From contig CAWIPA010000006.1 in the NCBI GenBank assembly GCA_963837855.1, forward strand, positions 151,506 to 175,505: a stretch of DNA of 24,000 nt, in the 5' to 3' direction. A program made the position numbers and the translations under genes. Of the stretch, positions 9,741 to 17,569 are shown one piece after another. A model generated the notes under the pieces. The model did no database searches, was not told the origin of the DNA, and saw nothing but the letters and a program-made list of their open reading frames with translations. This stretch comes from an uncultured Acidobacteriota bacterium. GTDB taxonomy: Bacteria > Acidobacteriota > Terriglobia > Acidiferrales > UBA7541. The first letter of the stretch is position 1; every line of letters starts with the position of its first letter.

Positions 9741-12700
9741 TCAAGACGAGCAAGGATGGGCGCCCAGGTTTCTTCCAGGGGGCAGGGGCGATGTAGAGGC
9801 TCGAGCCTTACCAGCGGGAGCGGGCGTCATGATTCGAGAGATTTGCCTGGCGCGAGGGCTGCCGGTGCGGCGAACGTGTTCGCGCAACGCGGCGCGCAGA
9901 CGGATTTCTTCGCCCGGCTCGAGCGCGCCCTCATTTGCCGGGCGAACGAATTCTTCACTGTAGGTCGCAGCGGTGGCGAATTCTTTTTGGATATACGCGA
10001 GGCCGCCGGTCATGCCGCTGGCCACGTTGATTCCGGTTGGGCCGAGGATAATTACCACTCCGGCGGTCATGTATTCGCAACCGTGCTGGCCCACGCCTTC
10101 GACGACCGCCAGCGCCCCGCTGTTGCGCACCGCGAATCGTTCGCCAGCCCGGCCTGCGATGTAAAGCTCGCCAGAGGTAGCGCCGTAGAGAGCGGTGTTC
10201 CCGGCCAGCAGATCGCCGCGCAGAGAGGCATCAGCGCCGGCTTCGATGGCGATCGTTCCGCCGCTTAGGCTTTTCGCGACGTAGTCGTTGGCTTCGCCGT
10301 GCAAGCGGAAAATTAGGCCATCGATCAGGAAGGCGCCGAAGCTTTGGCCGGCGGCGCCGTAGAAATCGAATTGCGTTGGCTCGCTGGCAGAGGCTGCGAA
10401 ATTTTTCCGGCGCAGGATGTGCCCGCTGAGATTTGCGCCGATGCTGCGATCCGAATTTTCGATCGGGAACGAGAGCGGATAACTCGAGTGCAGCTCGTAG
10501 CCCTGGATCAAGGCGGTTTCCAGCGAGCCTTTTGAGTTGGCGAGAATGGTTGCGGGATGCGCGGCTTCCGGGCGCGTTTCGGGCGAGGGCTCCAAGAGTT
10601 GCTCGACGGCGCGCGCGTTTGCCGCCGCGCGTGGGCGCAAACGCTCGACGGCGCCCTGCGCGTCGGCTAGCGAGCGCAGGCCCAACGCGGCCAGACGCTC
10701 GCGGACTTCGCCTGCCACGCCGCGGAAATAATTCATCGCCATTTCCGGATCGCCGGCGAAACGCGCGCGCAGATTTTCATCCTGCGTGGCGATGCCGACC
10801 GGGCAGGTGTTGAGATGACACTGCCGCGCCATGACGCAACCGATTGCGAGCAGCGATGAAGTGCCGAACCCGAATTCGTCGGCGCCGAGTAACGCAGCAA
10901 TTACGACGTCGCGCGCGAATTTGAAGCCGCCGTCCACGCGCAGGCTCACTCGATCGCGAAATCCCATCTGCAGCAGCGTAGTGTGCACTTTGCGCAGGCC
11001 CGCTTCCCACGGCAAGCCGGTATTTTTTATGGAGGTAAGCGGCGACGCCCCGGTGCCGCCATCGAAGCCTGAAATGGTGATCACTTGCGCGCCGGCTTTG
11101 GCCACTCCCGCGGCGATGATGCCGATGCCGGAATTAGAGACCAGCTTCACGCCGATTCTCGCCCGCGGATTTACGGCCCGCAGATCGTGAATGAGCTGCT
11201 CGAGATCTTCGATGCTGTAAATATCGTGATGCGGCGGCGGCGAAATCAGCGACATCCCCGGCACGGCGTGCCGCAGTCGCGCGATGAGCGCCGTAACTTT
11301 CTTCGCGGGAAGCTGGCCGCCCTCGCCAGGCTTCGAGCCTTGCGCCATTTTGATTTCAAGTTCGTCGGCGCGCACCAAATATTCCGTAGTCACCCCGAAG
11401 CGCGCAGAAGCCACTTGCTTCACGCGATTCGCGGCCTCAGGTTCCAGTTCGTAAACGTCAGGATCTTCGCCGCCTTCGCCAGTGTTGCTGCGCGCGCCCA
11501 TTCGATTCATCGCGATGGCGAGAGTGCGATGCGCTTCCGGGCTCAGCGCGCCAAGAGACATCGCTTGCGTGCTGAATCGGCGCAGGATTTCGGATTCGCT
11601 TTCCACCTCGTCGAGTGCGATGGCGTCGCTAGCGGCAAAATCCAGCAGGTCGCGGACGGCCACTGGCTCGCGCGATTCCGCCAGCGCTTCGTAGGCCCGA
11701 TAATTTTCCGGCGTCGGCGCGCCAATGTAGCGATGCATGCTGCGGACCAATGCTGGCGAACTCGAATGGCGCTCGCCGGCGTGGCGAAAACGGTAGAGGC
11801 CGTCGTCGCGCAAATCGTTGAGTGTGGCCGCCGGCGCGTAAGCGGCTTGATGGCGATCCAGGGCATCCTGCAATAAATCTTCGAGCGACTTGCCGCTCAG
11901 AACCGCGCCGGCATCTTCGAAAAAAGCTTCGCGGACTTCTTCGTCGAGCCCGACCAATTCGAAGAGCTGGCTATTGCGATAGCTGGCGATCGTGCAGATT
12001 CCCATGCGGGCCAGCACTTTGCGCAGCCCGGTTTCAACGGCGTCGCGGTAGCGCGCGCGTCCGCCGGCTTTTAGATTTCCGGCGAATTCGAGTGCCAGGT
12101 ACGGCAGCACCGCGCTGGCTCCCGCTGCGATCAGCATAGCCAGGTGATGCGTTTCGATGACTTGTCCGGTTTCGATGAGCAGCGGGATCTCGTAAGCGCC
12201 CGCGCGGACTTGAGATTTCCAGGCGGCGGCGACTCCGAGCAGAGCCGGTAACGCTGCTCTGCTCGGCCCTACTTTTCGATCGCTCAGCAGAATTATTTCC
12301 GGCGGATTCTCGCGCCACTCGCTGACTTCATCGCGAATTTTTTCTAGCGCGATTGCGGCTTCTTCTACTCCCGCGGCCGCTTCGTAGGTGATGTCGATGC
12401 GCTGCACTCGGCCTTGATGCTCAGACTCGAGCGCGGCTAGCTGGCTTTCGTCTAGCAGCGGTGAGGCAATTTTTGTGGATTTGCCGAGATGAACTTCGAG
12501 CGACATAACGTGGCCTTCGCGCAATGGATCGATCGGGGGATTTGTCACTTGGGCGAAGCGCTGCTTGCAATAATCCCAGAGTGGTCGGCGCATGGCGGAC
12601 ATGAATGCTGGAGGGGCGTCGTCGCCCATGCTCCAGACGGATTCTTTGGCTTCCGTCGCTAATGATTCGAAGAGCAGCCGGAATTGATCTTCGGTCCAAC

Positions 12701-14056
12701 CGAGCGCGGCTGCCGCTTTGCGTGGTTCGTTTGTTGGTTTCGATAAAACTGTGACTCGTTTTAGGCGCTTGGTGGCTGGCTCATTTTCTTCGCGATTGGG
12801 AGTCGCCAGCAACTTTGCGATTTCTTTTTCGGTTAGAACTTTCTTGCCTTGCGTGTCGACTACCAGCATTTCGCCGGGGCCCAGTCGTTGGCGGGCCTGC
12901 ACAGCCAGAAGTGGCTGTGCGACTGGGGCGTGATCCACCAGGCCGGCTTCAGAACCTAGAATTATCAGGCCGTCGGCGGTGATGGTGTAACGCAGCGGGC
13001 GCAAGCCGTTGCGATCCAGTTTTGCGCCCACATAGCGGCCGTCGGTGAAGACTAGCGCCGCTGGGCCGTCCCAGGGTTCTTGCGCAATGGATTCTCGGCG
13101 CAGAAAACGCCGCACCGCGGGATCTAGATTCGCGATTGGTTTCCCAGGCTGGCGGGACCATTCGCAACATGGCCGCCGGGATTTTGTACCCTTGGTGCAG
13201 CGACATTTCCAGCGCGTTATCGAAGCTCGCGGAATCGCTGACTCGCTCTTCGAGAGTGTGGAACCAATCAGCGGCTGCCAATTTTTTGCGCGTGGATTCT
13301 TCGCGAGCGCTCGTCCAGCGGCGATTGGCGCTGATGGTGTTGATTTCACCGTTGTGCGCGGCGTGGCGGAAAGGCTGCGCCATCGTCCAGCTGGGCTGCG
13401 TGTTGGTGGAATAGCGCTGATGGAAGATAGCGAAATTGGCGGCAAATTCCGGGTGGCTTAGGTCCCGGTAGAATTGGCGGAATTGCCGCGGGGTGAGCAG
13501 ACCTTTGTAGACGATGGTGCGCGTCGAAAGCGAGCAGAAGTAGGTGCCCGGCTCGCCTTCAAATTCCACTTGCTTGCGGAAGAAATACAGCGCGCGCTCC
13601 AGGTCGGCGACCGGTTGCATCGCGCTGAAAAAACATTGGCGGACGCGTGGTTGCGTAGAAAGCGCGCGGGCGCCCAGCGTGGCAGTTTCGATCGGCACTT
13701 CGCGCCAGCCCAAACATTCCAGATTATTTTTTCGCGCCAGCGATTCGATGGCTTGCCGGGCTTCCGTTTCTTTTTGCGGCGGAAGAAAAACCATGCCCAC
13801 CGCGAAAATTTCCGGCAGAGCGATATTTTCTTCCTGAGCGCGATTGCGAAAGAAATCTTTAGGGATCGGCAGGAGCAGGCCCGCACCGTCGCCGCTCATG
13901 CCGTCGGAATCGACGCCGCCTCGGTGCGAAAGGCGCTCCAGCGCGTTCAAAGCCAGTTGGATAATTTCGCGCGAGGATTCGCCATGTAGCGCGGGCGATG
14001 AAGCCCACCCCGCAGGCATCATGATCCAATCCCGGATTGAGGGCGGCTTCGCGCAT
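9741..14056 (-). pseudogene. gltB: Glutamate synthase large subunit, interrupted by at least two one-base frameshifts (near 13990 and near 13128)
   Basis: Three co-linear pieces. (1) 14056 to about 13990: MREAALNPGLDHDACGVGFIA, the Ntn amidotransferase Cys motif. (2) About 13990 to 13128: LHGESSREIIQLALNALERLSHRGG ... HQRYSTNT ... NGEINT ... VPPAWETNRE. (3) About 13128 to 9741: LDPAVRRFLRRESIAQEPWDGPAA, the central and FMN/Fe-S domains (...LNTCPVGIATQD...), and the C-terminal beta-helix domain (GTIAIEAG...LYGATSGELYIAGRAGERFAVRNSGA). No gltD follows. Confidence 0.9.
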
Positions 14057-14401: not shown

Positions 14402-15704
14402 TTATTGCTCCATCGCGCGGATGTAGTGCGTGATTGCTTCGCTCCAGCCGTCGATGTGCGTCCAGGGCCCGTACCCTACGCCGTTTTTGTTGCTGGCGGT
14501 GTTGATCATGTAGCCGCGGGCGCGGGGGCCCGGCACTTGATCGTGGGACTGCTCGTCGGTAATTACGATAATGCGATCGTATTTCTCCTTGATCTTCCCG
14601 AGCGCGCGGCCTAGATAAGTTCCGCCGTGCGGTCTGGCTGGCATCTAGCGCGTCGCGCAGTGCGAAGCCTCGCCGCGGTGGAACCTGGACCAGATCGTTC
14701 GAGAACGAGTACACGATGGCCTTCTCGCAGATCTCGCGCAGCAGAATGGCCAGACCGTAAGCCGCGTCCGTGCGGAGCATTTCCGAACGGCGCGAGAGTG
14801 CGGCGGTCATGCTGCCGGAAACGTCCACGAGTAGAGCCGTGCGGCCCGGCAGCTTCTCCTGCTCCTTGAGCGAGCTGAGCATGGCGCGCTCCAGCGCCTC
14901 TTCCAACTGCGGGGCGTGGCGTGCCGCCGCGATGAAGCGAAACGGCAGGACGCGGCCCGTTTTCATTTGCTCGAGGCCTGTGAGAATTAGCTGCTCGTCC
15001 ACTCCGGCTTGCTGCATGTTGCGCAGGTTGCGGAGCAGCGCGAGTGCGCCGAGCTTGCGCTCGCGGAGCAAACGCTCCCAGGCTTCGTGTTTGTCGGCGC
15101 CAGACGAAAGCGCTACCTCCCAGGTGTCGGGAGTTTCTAGCCTCCCTTCGATGAGGCGCTTCCAGAGCGCGTTCTGCTCGGCGTCACGCGGCTTGGCGTG
15201 GCAGAGGAACAGGACGTCGCGCAGGCGAATGGGCCCGGAGCGATCGTATTTCGCGAGCTGATACTCGTCGAATTTGCGGAAGGCTTGGGCCAGCCCCTTT
15301 TTCACCTGTGCGGAGAGCGGGACTTTGCCTTCCTTCCAATAAATGGCCACAAATTCGGCCAGCTCATCGGCGCGCTGGATGACTTGCGCCAGCGTGCGAG
15401 CGACCGCCTCGCGATGCGTTTTGTGACGCGCCATTTCGCGGACGAGCAGTAACGGAGCGTGACGCAGCTTCATCTGCTCGCGGGCTTCGACGGCCAGCGC
15501 GGCCACGGCCTCGGCTTTCACCTTGGGCACGAGTTCCTGGATGCGCCCGCCGATTTCCACGCCGTCTTCGTAGAACTGATCCTCCCAGAGCAGGCAGGCG
15601 AGGACCGAGCGGCGAAGCTGCAGCTCGACGGAAATATTTCGAGCAGGAGCGCCTTCGTGCGTGCGCGGGCCGTAGGGAATTTTTAGAATGTTGAGTCGCG
15701 CCAT
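14402..15704 (-). pseudogene. rsr: Ro60 orthologue Rsr (TROVE domain plus vWA domain), interrupted by a one-base frameshift near 14625-14645
   Basis: TROVE-type N-terminus (PRTHEGAPA, LLWEDQFYEDG, helical repeats). The vWA MIDAS motif LLVDVSGSM is in the 15704 frame. The continuation RPHGGTYLGRALGKIKEKYDRIIVITDEQSHD...IDGWSE lies in ORF 14402-14644. After the junction the 15704 frame turns into Arg-rich nonsense. AGGAGG (15718-15713) sits 8 nt before ATG 15704. Confidence 0.85.
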
Positions 15705-15735
15705 TTTGGTGCCCTCCTTTTTGCTGTTGTGATAA

Positions 15736-15884
15736 TTGCCGGGGAATAATTGGTGACGGATCCAGCTTGCGCTGGCGGATGCTCTGCCATTGAGCTACGC
15801 GACGCTGCACTGCAGCAGCGCCACGGCAGGATTCGAACCTGCGTCTTTCCGAGCCGAAGTAACCGTGACCTGCGCCACCGGCAA
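15736..15884 (-). ncRNA. Y-RNA-like module 1 (YrlA-like, with a permuted tRNA-like domain)
   Basis: Stem1 UUGCCGG (15884-15878) pairs with CCGGCAA (15742-15736). 5' loop UGGCGCA. Stem2 GGUCACGG (15870-15863) pairs with CCGUCACC (15759-15752) with one C-C mismatch. 3' loop AAUUAUUCC. The apex holds a T arm GCAGG-UUCGAAU-CCUGC (15842-15826), a capped 11-bp acceptor-like helix (15825-15798), a D arm GCUC-AAUGGCA-GAGC (15795-15781) and a hairpin CCAGC-GCAA-GCUGG (15775-15762). Confidence 0.75.
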
Positions 15885-15909
15885 ACTTTTTGATGCTTGT
15901 TGCGATCGA

Positions 15910-15979
15910 TCGCCGGGGAAAAATCGAGAGCGGTGCTTGCTTCGTCACAGGAAGTAACCGCGCTCTTCGCCACCGGCGA
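15910..15979 (-). ncRNA. Y-RNA-like module 2 (minimal)
   Basis: Stem1 UCGCCGG (15979-15973) pairs with CCGGCGA (15916-15910). 5' loop UGGCGAA. Stem2 GAGCGCGG (15965-15958) pairs with CCGCUCUC (15933-15926) with one C-U mismatch. UUACUUC follows stem2. Small apical hairpin CUUC-CUGUGAC-GAAG. 3' loop GAUUUUUCC. Confidence 0.6.
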
Positions 15980-15991
15980 AGCTTTTCAACA

Positions 15992-16315
15992 TCAATCGGG
16001 GTCGTTCAATACGAGTTTGAACTCGTGCTCGTTGTCGGCAGCATCCTCCACGGCCGCGAACCCCGTGGTGCGCTTGCCTCCGTGCGGCACAACGACCCAG
16101 GCGATCTTTTCCATCTCGAGGAGCGTTTGGCGCTGGGCCTCGACGTGGGACGAACATTCGCGCACGTGGAACGGCACGCGATGTTCCGGCCACGTGGCGC
16201 GGCAGATTACCAGCTCTTCGCTTTCGCGGAAGCCGCGTTCGACGTGCGCGTGCGTGCACGTGTAGCAGAGCGACGCGCGCTGCGACTGCGGATCGGTTTT
16301 GAAATTGACGCCCAT
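15992..16315 (-). CDS. Small Cys/His-rich protein of unknown function (107 aa), embedded in the Y-RNA-like array
   Basis: ATG 16315 has AAAGG 8 nt upstream (the ORF track starts at GTG 16324). Composition is balanced and protein-like: MGVNFKTDPQSQRASLCYTCTHAHVERGF...VICRATWPEHRVPFHVRECSSHVEAQ...KIAWVVVPHGGK. The overlapping 287-aa plus-strand ORF is Arg-rich antisense noise. I do not recognise the family. Confidence 0.55.
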   Translation of the reverse strand: MGVNFKTDPQSQRASLCYTCTHAHVERGFRESEELVICRATWPEHRVPFHVRECSSHVEAQRQTLLEMEKIAWVVVPHGGKRTTGFAAVEDAADNEHEFKLVLNDPD

Positions 16316-16392
16316 GCGCGTCACCTTTCTAGAAGCGCGCTCAAATGCGCTTCGGAATGCGCGCTTGCTGTTGCCGCGCGCGGGTTAAATCA

Positions 16393-16556
16393 TTCGCCGG
16401 GGAACAAGCGCCCAGGGTATGTCTCAAGGCGGTATCCAGTGGGTACCTTTTGCTTCGGGGCTACGCCCCCGTCCCCACTGTTCCGTTCCTTGGCAGGGTT
16501 TCCGGCCCTGCGCGACGTTGGCGGAGGAAGTAACCCTCGACTACGCCACCGGCGAA
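16393..16556 (-). ncRNA. Y-RNA-like module 3 (large apical domain)
   Basis: Stem1 UUCGCCGG (16556-16549) pairs with CCGGCGAA (16400-16393). 5' loop UGGCGUA. Stem2 GUCGAGGG (16541-16534) pairs with CCCUGGGC (16417-16410) with one G-G mismatch and one G-U pair. UUACUUC follows stem2. 3' loop GCUUGUUCC. The apex has hairpins GCAGGG-CCGGAAA-CCCUGC, CAGUGGG...CCCACUG (16480-16437) and GGGGC-GUA-GCCCC. Confidence 0.6.
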
Positions 16557-16563
16557 AATTTTG

Positions 16564-16672
16564 GCCAGGGAAAAATCGGCGCGGTGAAAAACGGGGACTC
16601 GAACCCCATCGCTCATCGCTTCCGCGACTTGCGACTTCTCCATGCGAAGTATCCGCGTCGTGCGCCACTGGC
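16564..16672 (-). ncRNA. Y-RNA-like module 4 (with T-arm-like hairpin)
   Basis: Stem1 GCCAG (16672-16668) pairs with CUGGC (16568-16564). 5' loop UGGCGCA. Stem2 CGACGCGG (16660-16653) pairs with CCGCGCCG (16584-16577) with one A-C mismatch. AUACUUC follows stem2. 3' loop AUUUUUCC. The apex has ACUUC-GCAUGGA-GAAGU (16650-16634) and AUGGGG-UUCGAGU-CCCCGU (16609-16591). Confidence 0.6.
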
Positions 16673-16678
16673 ACATTT

Positions 16679-16750
16679 TCCCGGGGGAATAACCGTTCGC
16701 GGTCGTGCATGCTTAACAGGCGATGGAACCGCGAACTACGCCACCCAGGA
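16679..16750 (-). ncRNA. Y-RNA-like module 5 (minimal)
   Basis: Stem1 UCCUGGG (16750-16744) pairs with CCCGGGA (16685-16679), including one U-G pair. 5' loop UGGCGUA. Stem2 GUUCGCGG (16736-16729) pairs perfectly with CCGCGAAC (16702-16695). 3' loop GGUUAUUCC. It ends only 6 nt from module 4. Confidence 0.55.
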
Positions 16751-16909
16751 TGAAAAACTATTCAGGGCAAACGGTTGAGATTGCGGGATTTACTGCCGTG
16801 GGGATCCGGTTAAGGTTCGGCCACAATCCCGGAGCAGCGTCAGAGCCGCTTGCCTGACTTCCGAATTGTGTTTGACTTGGTGCATTCCGAACTTTCTCCA
16901 GAGTTCGGG

Positions 16910-17136: not shown

Positions 17137-17212
17137 GTCAGGGCACGGTTTTAACCGTGCCGTAAATGCCGCAAATTCAATACGGCTTCAGCCGCTGAGG
17201 TTTTGTTTTTTC
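17137..17212 (+). repeat. Repeat family A, full copy
   Basis: gtcaGGGCACGGTtttaACCGTGCCgtaaatgccgcaaattcaatacggcttcagccgctgaggttttgtttttt. See 9281-9356. Confidence 0.75.
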
Positions 17213-17569
17213 AGGTGGGAGCCTCCTGCTTTAGCAGGGGGAGGAGCGCTTCAGCGCTCCGAAAACGCTGGCGATTTTTAATGCGCTTGAGCGCCTGGCT
17301 TCCACAGCGCCGTTCGCGGCGCGACCCGTAGTATTCGAGGTGTCGAGGGCACTCCAATCCGTTCAATCTATCGAGTGAATTGTGATCGGTAGTTGTTCGT
17401 TGCGGCGGACACAGCCAGCAGTGGCTGTGCTACTGGAACCGGCATCGAAGCCCGCGCGCAATTACGGCGCATGGTGCAGCCGGCGTCCAGCATGCTGGAC
17501 GATGCGTATTTGCGTTGTGTGGACTATTGCGCGGGCTTATGATGCGCCGCTTGGATGGGAGGATTGACT

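What the first reader, a model, noticed from the sequence alone, without database searches (positions are those of the whole stretch)
15992..16315. Small Cys/His-rich ORF embedded between Y-RNA-like modules 3 and 2
A 107-aa ORF with a plausible RBS sits inside the RNA array. Module 3 ends 77 nt upstream of its ATG, and module 2 starts 12 nt after its stop. It has clustered potential metal ligands: CYTCTHAH, then C at 40, H46, H51, C56 and H59 (numbering from the GTG at 16324; subtract 3 for numbering from ATG 16315). Its composition is normal, unlike the Arg-rich antisense ORF. I cannot assign it to a family from memory. Its position suggests a protein partner of the Rsr/Y-RNA machinery, for example a zinc-binding RNA-binding or adaptor protein. 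That is inference from gene context only.
Basis: inference. Interest (0 to 1): 0.6.

Follow-up and report, generated by a model that had tools for sequence, protein, structure and literature searches.

The report
New Cys4 protein in Ro60/Y-RNA cassette
The small ORF is a real gene for a 107-residue metal-binding protein of an unnamed acidobacterial family, and in many relatives it sits in the same cassette as the Ro60 (rsr) gene, its Y RNAs and sometimes the RNA ligase RtcB, which makes it a candidate new component of bacterial RNA quality control.

Summary
An intact 107-aa ORF (15992-16315, minus strand) has a conserved Shine-Dalgarno-like box and lies between Y-RNA-like modules, upstream of rsr.

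It is a real gene, here called X. A profile search found 619 representative clusters. Of the hits covering the core, 138 of 146 keep four Cys (CX2CX17CX15C). dN/dS is 0.12-0.36. X matches no Pfam, NCBIfam, PHROG or PADLOC family, no PDB sequence, and no reproducible known fold.

The partner-of-Rsr idea is partly supported.
- In a class-level sample of 401 genomes, 50 have X, 27 have TROVE and 18 have both.
- In 17 of those 18, X lies directly upstream of rsr on the same strand, usually beside a YrlA-like RNA. This occurs in three families and in mostly different flanks.
- The window's cassette (16904-14402) is colinear with one in another genus that reads Y modules-X-RtcB-YrlA-Rsr. Other loci show RtcB-X or X-RtcB.

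X is not an obligate partner. 32 of 50 X-bearing genomes lack TROVE, and 9 of 27 TROVE genomes lack X. X is acidic, which argues against a classic RNA binder. Its mechanism is still inferred, and the scan recorded no look-alike on other DNA.

The parts
15992..16315 (-). Gene X: 107-aa Cys4 (C17, C20, C38, C54) acidic small protein; stop codon included
   Evidence: ORF list. Homologues. Cys conservation. dN/dS 0.12-0.36 in relatives. AF2 core at pLDDT 84-97.
16321..16328 (-). Shine-Dalgarno-like box AAAGGTGA, ending 5 nt before the ATG. It contains the alternative GTG at 16324.
   Evidence: Sequence. The same TAGAAAGG-type box lies upstream of X in other genomes.
16389..16750 (-). Upstream Y-RNA-like modules 5-3, with repeated GCCGGUGGCG-N9-GGUUACUUC 5' boxes and UUCCCCGGCG 3' boxes
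   Evidence: Repeat families D1-D3. Colinear at 65-69% with the region upstream of X in G720 and G589.
15905..15986 (-). Y-RNA-like module 2, between the X stop codon and the YrlA-like module. RtcB occupies this position in the orthologous G720 cassette.
   Evidence: Repeat copies. Fold. blastn and tblastn maps.
15731..15891 (-). Module 1: YrlA-type Y RNA with a tRNA-like core
   Evidence: Rfam YrlA match at 15752-15867: 36.4 bits, E 7.5e-6, below the gathering score of 69. Fold z-score -3.0.
14402..15704 (-). rsr (Ro60: TROVE + vWA), read in two frames because of a 1-nt frameshift near 14631-14638
   Evidence: Pfam TROVE 1.4e-19 and vWA_Ro60. tblastn with the G720 Rsr switches frame at 14631-14638.
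14402..16904 (-). Whole cassette homologous to the Y modules-X-(RtcB)-YrlA-Rsr cassettes of another genus
   Evidence: blastn: window 16904-15951 matches L094 1175-2066, and window 15888-14436 matches L094 3587-5035. L095 gives the same pattern.

Best explanation
The ORF encodes a real, standalone 107-aa protein (X). Its core is built around four conserved cysteines that most likely hold one metal centre, either Zn or an Fe-S cluster. An amphipathic helix, a conserved GF motif and an acidic C-terminal tail follow the core.

In this genome X is an integral, co-oriented gene of a horizontally acquired cassette: Y-RNA-like modules, X, Y-RNA modules, rsr. It is most likely transcribed with them.

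I infer that X is an accessory factor of the Ro60/Y-RNA RNA-surveillance and repair module, and of RtcB where that is present. The most plausible role is a metal- or redox-dependent adaptor or regulator that contacts a protein partner (Rsr, RtcB or a nuclease) through its acidic tail. Direct RNA binding is less plausible.

Shown: the gene is real, the Cys4 signature, cassette membership and recurrent linkage to rsr, YrlA and RtcB.
Inferred: co-transcription, metal binding, physical partnership and mode of action.
For: Gene reality:
- Homologues at 92% and 59% identity.
- 619 representative clusters at E<=1e-3.
- All four Cys present in 138 of 146 unfiltered hits.
- dN/dS 0.12-0.36.
- Conserved SD box.
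- AF2 core pLDDT 84-97.

Linkage:
- Phylum sample of 401 genomes: X in 15, TROVE in 21, both in 7, all adjacent.
- Class sample of 401 genomes: X in 50, TROVE in 27, both in 18 against 3.4 expected if independent. One-sided Fisher p = 5e-12, not corrected for relatedness.
- In 17 of the 18, X lies directly upstream of rsr on the same strand. These span three families.
- Flanking genes mostly differ between the cassettes.
- YrlA-like Rfam hits lie next to X in Rsr-linked loci but not in X-only loci.
- The window cassette is colinear with G720 (Aas, modules, X, RtcB, YrlA, Rsr at 87% identity) and with G589.
- No other genome of the window's genus has X (0 of 18) or TROVE (0 of 18), so the cassette arrived as a unit.
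- RtcB is adjacent in G033, L012 and L108.
Against: - 32 of 50 X-bearing genomes have no TROVE gene. Most X genes of the 'Ca. Acidiferrales'-type clade sit alone between Aas and MlaD. X-only genes remain under purifying selection.
- 9 of 27 TROVE genomes lack X but still have YrlA-like RNAs.
- G000 has no RtcB.
- The Aas-MlaD site is a variable hotspot that also holds toxin-antitoxin-like genes, so some adjacency could be hitch-hiking.
- There is no expression or interaction data.
- No known fold supports any activity. The HiPIP-like hint (Z 3.5) did not recur with a second model.
Confidence: 0.6

Rival explanations
1. X is an independent small metalloprotein, for example a stress or redox protein, with its own function. 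Its adjacency to rsr and RtcB reflects shared residence in variable islands and hitch-hiking, not a functional partnership.
For: - Most X genes occur without TROVE: 32 of 50 X-bearing genomes.
- Aas-X-MlaD is the common arrangement, and that site also accepts toxin-antitoxin-like and other inserts.
- X-only genes show dN/dS of about 0.2.
- On the X tree, Rsr linkage needs at least 4 changes.
- Integron integrase and toxin-antitoxin-like genes neighbour X in other clades.
Against: - X directly upstream of rsr, co-oriented, in 17 of 18 co-occurring genomes, across three families and mostly unrelated flanks.
- X moved with the cassette into G000.
- There is a separate recurrent link to RtcB.
- YrlA-like RNAs flank X on either side.
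Confidence: 0.25
2. X is a small metal- or redox-sensing regulator that controls expression of the cassette, filling the role that RtcR plays in enterobacteria. It is not a subunit of the RNP.
For: - X is the first ORF of the cassette, and no RtcR-like activator lies in the cassette.
- Four Cys in a roughly 100-aa protein is a format used by small Fe-S or Zn sensor proteins (general knowledge).
- X is retained when rsr or rtcB are absent.
Against: - No DNA-binding or known regulator domain was found.
- The composition is acidic.
- Regulators are usually lost together with their target operon, yet X persists alone.
Confidence: 0.12
3. The ORF is a chance open frame inside a non-coding RNA array and is not translated.
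For: It lies inside an RNA array, and overlapping antisense ORFs exist in this GC-rich DNA.
Against: - A large conserved family.
- Invariant Cys.
- dN/dS below 0.4.
- Conserved SD and start codon.
- A confident AF2 core.
Confidence: 0.01

Closest known systems
Salmonella Typhimurium rsr-yrlBA-rtcBA RNA repair operon (Ro60/Rsr, YrlA/YrlB Y RNAs, RtcB, RtcA, regulator RtcR)
   Same: - A Ro60 (TROVE+vWA) gene is co-oriented with YrlA-type tRNA-like Y RNAs interleaved between protein genes.
- The orthologous cassette in G720 also carries RtcB between X and YrlA.
   Different: - The acidobacterial cassettes contain an extra conserved ORF (X) that matched no library family here. I could not check the main comparative survey of these operons (Burroughs and Aravind 2016), which is not held.
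- No RtcA or RtcR is seen in the cassette.
- G000 lacks RtcB altogether.
- The window carries five Y-like modules.
Deinococcus radiodurans Rsr-Y RNA-PNPase (RYPER) machine
   Same: It shares the concept of a Ro60-Y RNA RNP that recruits a protein effector. X is a candidate recruited or accessory protein by gene context.
   Different: X is a 12-kDa Cys4 protein with no nuclease or known RNA-binding domain, and no interaction has been shown.
Archease, the small accessory protein encoded next to RtcB
   Same: Like Archease, X is a small standalone protein repeatedly encoded next to RtcB (G033, L012, L108, G720).
   Different: There is no sequence or fold similarity. X carries a Cys4 metal site, and X is linked more often to rsr than to rtcB.
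HiPIP-like small [4Fe-4S] domains (HiPIP 1isu; 4-hydroxyphenylacetate decarboxylase gamma 2y8n_B; benzylsuccinate synthase beta 4pkf_B)
   Same: - One CX2C followed by two single Cys, with a spacing that resembles (from memory) the HiPIP pattern.
   Different: - The Z-scores are far below significance.
- The hits did not recur with a second model.
- No sequence-level match was found.
- X shows no obvious signal peptide by eye.

Membership tests
Unnamed X family (~105-aa Cys4 proteins, mostly Acidobacteriota) | Significant profile match over the whole length | tested here: met
   The window protein seeds the family. 83 representative clusters score E<=1e-10 and 619 score E<=1e-3. Genome hits score E 1e-25 to 1e-38.
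Unnamed X family (~105-aa Cys4 proteins, mostly Acidobacteriota) | The four cysteines CX2C...C...C | tested here: met
   C17, C20, C38 and C54 are present in the window protein. All four are present in 138 of 146 unfiltered hits.
Rsr/Y-RNA(/RtcB) RNA repair operon | Ro60 gene with TROVE and vWA domains | tested here: met
   PF05731 at 1.4e-19 and PF25045 at 2.6e-4. The gene carries one frameshift.
Rsr/Y-RNA(/RtcB) RNA repair operon | YrlA-type Y RNA adjacent to rsr | tested here: inconclusive
   RF02553 scores 36.4 bits, E 7.5e-6, over the full model length, but falls below the gathering score of 69. Relatives score 36-56 bits.
Rsr/Y-RNA(/RtcB) RNA repair operon | RtcB ligase in the operon | tested here: not met
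   No PF01139 match anywhere in G000, which is 91% complete. RtcB is present in the orthologous G720 cassette.
Rsr/Y-RNA(/RtcB) RNA repair operon | RtcR-type sigma54 activator | not tested
   No large ORF of that kind lies inside 14402-16904. The genome was not searched for RtcR.
HiPIP-like [4Fe-4S] proteins | Fold similarity to solved HiPIP-like domains | tested here: inconclusive
   Model 1 gave Z 2.2-3.5 to 2y8n_B, 9pzj_E, 4pkf_B, 9o8u_B and 1isu_B. Model 2 did not reproduce them. Foldseek found nothing.
HiPIP-like [4Fe-4S] proteins | Bound iron-sulfur cluster | not testable with these tools
   This needs UV-vis or EPR spectroscopy, or metal analysis of purified protein.
Classical zinc ribbon | Two CXXC/H knuckles | tested here: not met
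   Only one CX2C is present, and the other two Cys are single. Zn-ribbon Pfam models hit single members only, at E>0.01.

The most novel reading that the evidence does not exclude
X is a previously unrecognised protein subunit of the bacterial Ro60-Y RNA RNP. It could be the effector or gate held by the Y-RNA modules, or an Fe-S or redox switch that couples oxidative stress to Ro60- and RtcB-mediated RNA surveillance and repair. Its fold is a small metal-binding fold with no solved relative found.
Probability: 0.15. Interest if true: 0.8.

Novelty: new variant of a known kind. Interest (0 to 1): 0.6.

Why it matters
What bacterial Ro60-Y RNA particles recruit, apart from PNPase in Deinococcus, is an open question. 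So is what the tRNA-like and other Y-RNA modules bind.

X is an unannotated protein embedded among the Y RNAs, kept directly upstream of rsr across three acidobacterial families, and sometimes joined by RtcB. That makes it a concrete, testable candidate component. It also defines a sizeable protein family (at least 619 clusters at 50% identity) with a Cys4 site and no known fold or name, so it could seed a new family entry.

If X turns out to be unrelated to Rsr, it is still a widespread, conserved small metalloprotein of soil Acidobacteriota.

Tried and rejected
- Pfam, NCBIfam, PHROGs and PADLOC scans of X and relatives found no family.
- A PDB sequence-profile search gave 0 hits at E<=10.
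- Foldseek against PDB and BFVD gave nothing at E<=1e-3.
- VIA-align wide gave weak HiPIP-like hits for model 1 that model 2 did not reproduce. I keep this only as a lead.
- The ESM Atlas returned only unnamed hypothetical clusters.
- A search for longer, fused forms found none at 217 aa or more; this is weak evidence.
- The gathering-threshold Rfam scan of the window found nothing, and the tRNA scan found none.
- The promoter/terminator scan was uninformative.
The metagenome scan did not return them either.
- Burroughs and Aravind 2016 and the Sim et al. 2020 review are not held. Whether X was already noted there could not be checked. Full-text searches found no paper on it.
- I rejected His as ligands because they are not conserved.
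- I rejected the chance-ORF reading.
- I rejected the obligate-Rsr-partner reading.

Full report
**1. The observation**

The minus strand carries an ORF at 15992-16324 (GTG start, 110 aa) or 15992-16315 (ATG start, 107 aa). The sequence AAAGGTGA (16328-16321) ends 5 nt before the ATG and contains the GTG. An equivalent TAGAAAGG-type box precedes the ATG of homologues from several clades, and the closest homologue starts at the same Met. I therefore take the ATG as the start.

The 3' box of the upstream module is at 16389-16410. The 5' box of the next module is at 15949-15986, just after the stop. Counted from the ATG, the residues are C17, C20, H22, H24, C38, H45, H50, C54 and H57.

**2. It is a real gene (X)**

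- The word-index search found proteins of 92% and 59% identity.
- A full HMMER profile search of 1.84 billion representatives gave 619 clusters at E<=1e-3 and 83 at E<=1e-10. Nearly all are 95-130 aa.
- My family alignment A2 was filtered for the Cys motif, so I re-checked without that filter. 138 of 146 hits that cover the core have all four Cys, and most of the rest are truncated.
- Other near-invariant positions are L16, G28, F49, V51, A72, G85 and F86. The histidines are not conserved.
- Nei-Gojobori dN/dS between moderately diverged orthologues is 0.12-0.36. This includes loci that lack rsr.
- AlphaFold2 gives a confident core. In the window protein residues 11-70 have pLDDT 84-97. In an f11 orthologue residues 11-70 have pLDDT 81-92. 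The core has two short beta hairpins and a helix at 65-71, followed by a less confident C-terminal part and a disordered acidic tail.

**3. No known family or fold**

- Pfam, NCBIfam, PHROGs and PADLOC give nothing.
- The profile search against PDB sequences gives nothing at E<=10.
- Foldseek against PDB and BFVD gives nothing significant.
- The ESM Atlas lists only unnamed hypothetical clusters, most commonly from Acidobacteriota.
- VIA-align of model 1 ranked five small HiPIP-like [4Fe-4S] proteins first (2y8n_B Z 3.5, 9pzj_E, 4pkf_B, 9o8u_B, 1isu_B). From memory, the Cys spacing CX2CX17CX15C resembles the HiPIP pattern. The second model did not reproduce these hits. I keep Fe-S versus Zn open.
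- The classical two-knuckle zinc-ribbon signature is absent.
- No fused forms were found; this is weak evidence.

**4. Composition**

Most members are acidic, with pI about 4.8-6.2 (the window protein is 5.8). The C-terminal third has pI 4.4-5.8 and often ends in a run of D/E. This argues against a typical basic RNA-binding protein. It fits a protein-contact or nucleic-acid-mimic tail, but that is inference.

**5. Gene context: the key test**

TROVE is rare in this lineage. Among 61 relatives only the window's genome has it, and none of 18 same-genus genomes has X or TROVE.

| Sample (401 genomes each) | X | TROVE | Both |
|---|---|---|---|
| Phylum | 15 | 21 | 7 |
| Class | 50 | 27 | 18 |

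- In the phylum sample, all 7 genomes with both have X immediately upstream of rsr on the same strand.
- In the class sample, 3.4 co-occurrences would be expected if independent. The one-sided Fisher p is 5e-12, which overstates significance because kin are not independent.
- In 17 of the 18, X lies upstream of rsr on the same strand within about 0.1-1.8 kb. The exception, G650, has them on different contigs.
- The 17 come from three families: f1 (G000, G589, G720), f7 (G611, G694) and f11 (twelve genomes).
- Among six f11 cassettes and the window, flanking genes are mostly not shared. The pair has therefore been kept together in many genomic sites.
- YrlA-like Rfam matches (36-56 bits, all below the gathering score) lie directly beside X in Rsr-linked loci. 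The order is either YrlA, X, rsr or X, YrlA, rsr. X-only loci tested show none.

**6. The window's cassette is orthologous to one in another genus**

| Genome / locus | Gene order | Notes |
|---|---|---|
| G720 (record title MFD09286.bin.1.244) | Aas, Y-like modules, X, RtcB, YrlA-like, Rsr, then MlaD on the opposite strand | Rsr is 87% identical to the window's |
| G589 | Aas, modules, X, YrlA-like, Rsr, MlaD | X is frameshifted; Rsr is 83% identical |

blastn shows that window 16904-15951 is colinear with G720 upstream of and through X at 65%. Window 15888-14436 is colinear with G720 YrlA plus Rsr at 79%. RtcB occupies in G720 the place of the window's module 2.

In G000 the cassette lies between gltB and esterase genes, not between Aas and MlaD. 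The cassette was therefore acquired as a unit that included X. G000 has no RtcB.

**7. Links to RtcB**

- RtcB followed by X occurs in G033 and in metagenome contig L012.
- X followed by RtcB without Rsr occurs in L108.
- X, RtcB, YrlA, Rsr occurs in G720.
- In G020 the same site has X without RtcB (unpublished genome).

**8. Limits of the partnership**

- 32 of 50 X-bearing genomes lack TROVE.
- In the 'Ca. Acidiferrales'-type clade the usual arrangement is Aas, X, MlaD. That intergenic site is variable and also holds toxin-antitoxin-like inserts.
- Three f11 genomes have X alone in a syntenic AsnRS context.
- Nine TROVE genomes lack X. No X-like ORF lies upstream of rsr there, although YrlA-like RNAs are present.
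- On the X tree, Rsr-linked genes fall in at least three well-supported clades mixed with unlinked ones.
- X evolves much faster than Rsr. The window shares 34-46% (X) and 68-73% (Rsr) identity with f11.

X is therefore a frequent but dispensable companion of rsr, and it has a function that survives the loss of rsr.

**9. Interpretation**

The best reading (confidence about 0.6) is that X is an accessory metal-binding factor of the Ro60/Y-RNA/RtcB surveillance and repair module. The main rival (about 0.25) is an independent small metalloprotein that shares islands with these genes. A regulator role (about 0.12) is a variant of the best reading. A chance ORF is excluded. Mechanistic details remain inferred: the identity of the metal, the partner and the role of the acidic tail.

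**10. Caveats**

- rsr is split by a 1-nt frameshift near 14631-14638. gltB is also split. The assembly probably carries indel errors; X itself is intact.
- Some claims rest on unpublished genomes:
  - the L003 context (G020);
  - the L005 context (G027);
  - the L020 tree row (G210);
  - the tandem copies L072 (G787) and L080 (G708).
- Those genomes are also counted in the tallies. The main conclusions do not depend on them.
- Literature searches found no description of this protein. The most relevant comparative paper, Burroughs and Aravind 2016, is not held.

Noticed in passing
window 14402-15704 (frameshift near 14631-14638); also gltB 9741-14022: rsr is read in two frames, and the true C-terminus lies in ORF 14402-14644. 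The gltB ORFs also overlap as if frameshifted. This is probably an indel error of the assembly rather than pseudogenisation.
   Followed up: partly
L014:7641-8555(-) (G033) and L091:2290-3126(+) (G522): A second conserved hypothetical family of about 280-304 aa with no Pfam match. It follows RtcB-X in G033 and lies directly upstream of rsr in G522. The two copies are 49% identical (E 9e-91). It is another candidate RNA-repair-associated protein.
   Followed up: partly
L094 / L099 (G720, MFD09286.bin.1.244), L095 (G589), L108: The Aas-MlaD intergenic site of 'Ca. Acidiferrales'-type genomes is a variable hotspot. It holds X alone, X-RtcB, X-YrlA-Rsr or X-RtcB-YrlA-Rsr, and elsewhere toxin-antitoxin-like genes (L114) or larger inserts (L106, L107).
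   Followed up: partly
L070, L072, L079, L080, L103, L105, L107, L115, L116, L068: Tandem duplicated X genes (X plus a more divergent X') occur in several genomes. L072 and L080 come from unpublished genomes.
   Followed up: no
L021:164-1144(+), L023:1982-2962(+): In another family of the phylum (f59), X lies next to an ORF that by eye resembles an integron/tyrosine integrase. Toxin-antitoxin-like ORFs neighbour X in L013 and L019 (judged by eye, not tested). This suggests X often resides in accessory regions.
   Followed up: no
window 17140-17259 (+): A weak Rfam match to HgcC (26 bits, E 0.0016, below gathering) overlaps a hairpin and terminator-like element just upstream of the cassette boundary.
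   Followed up: no
L063 / L029 (G316): In G316 the rsr next to X is degraded into several short frames with one in-frame TGA, at about 39-43% identity, while X remains intact.
   Followed up: no
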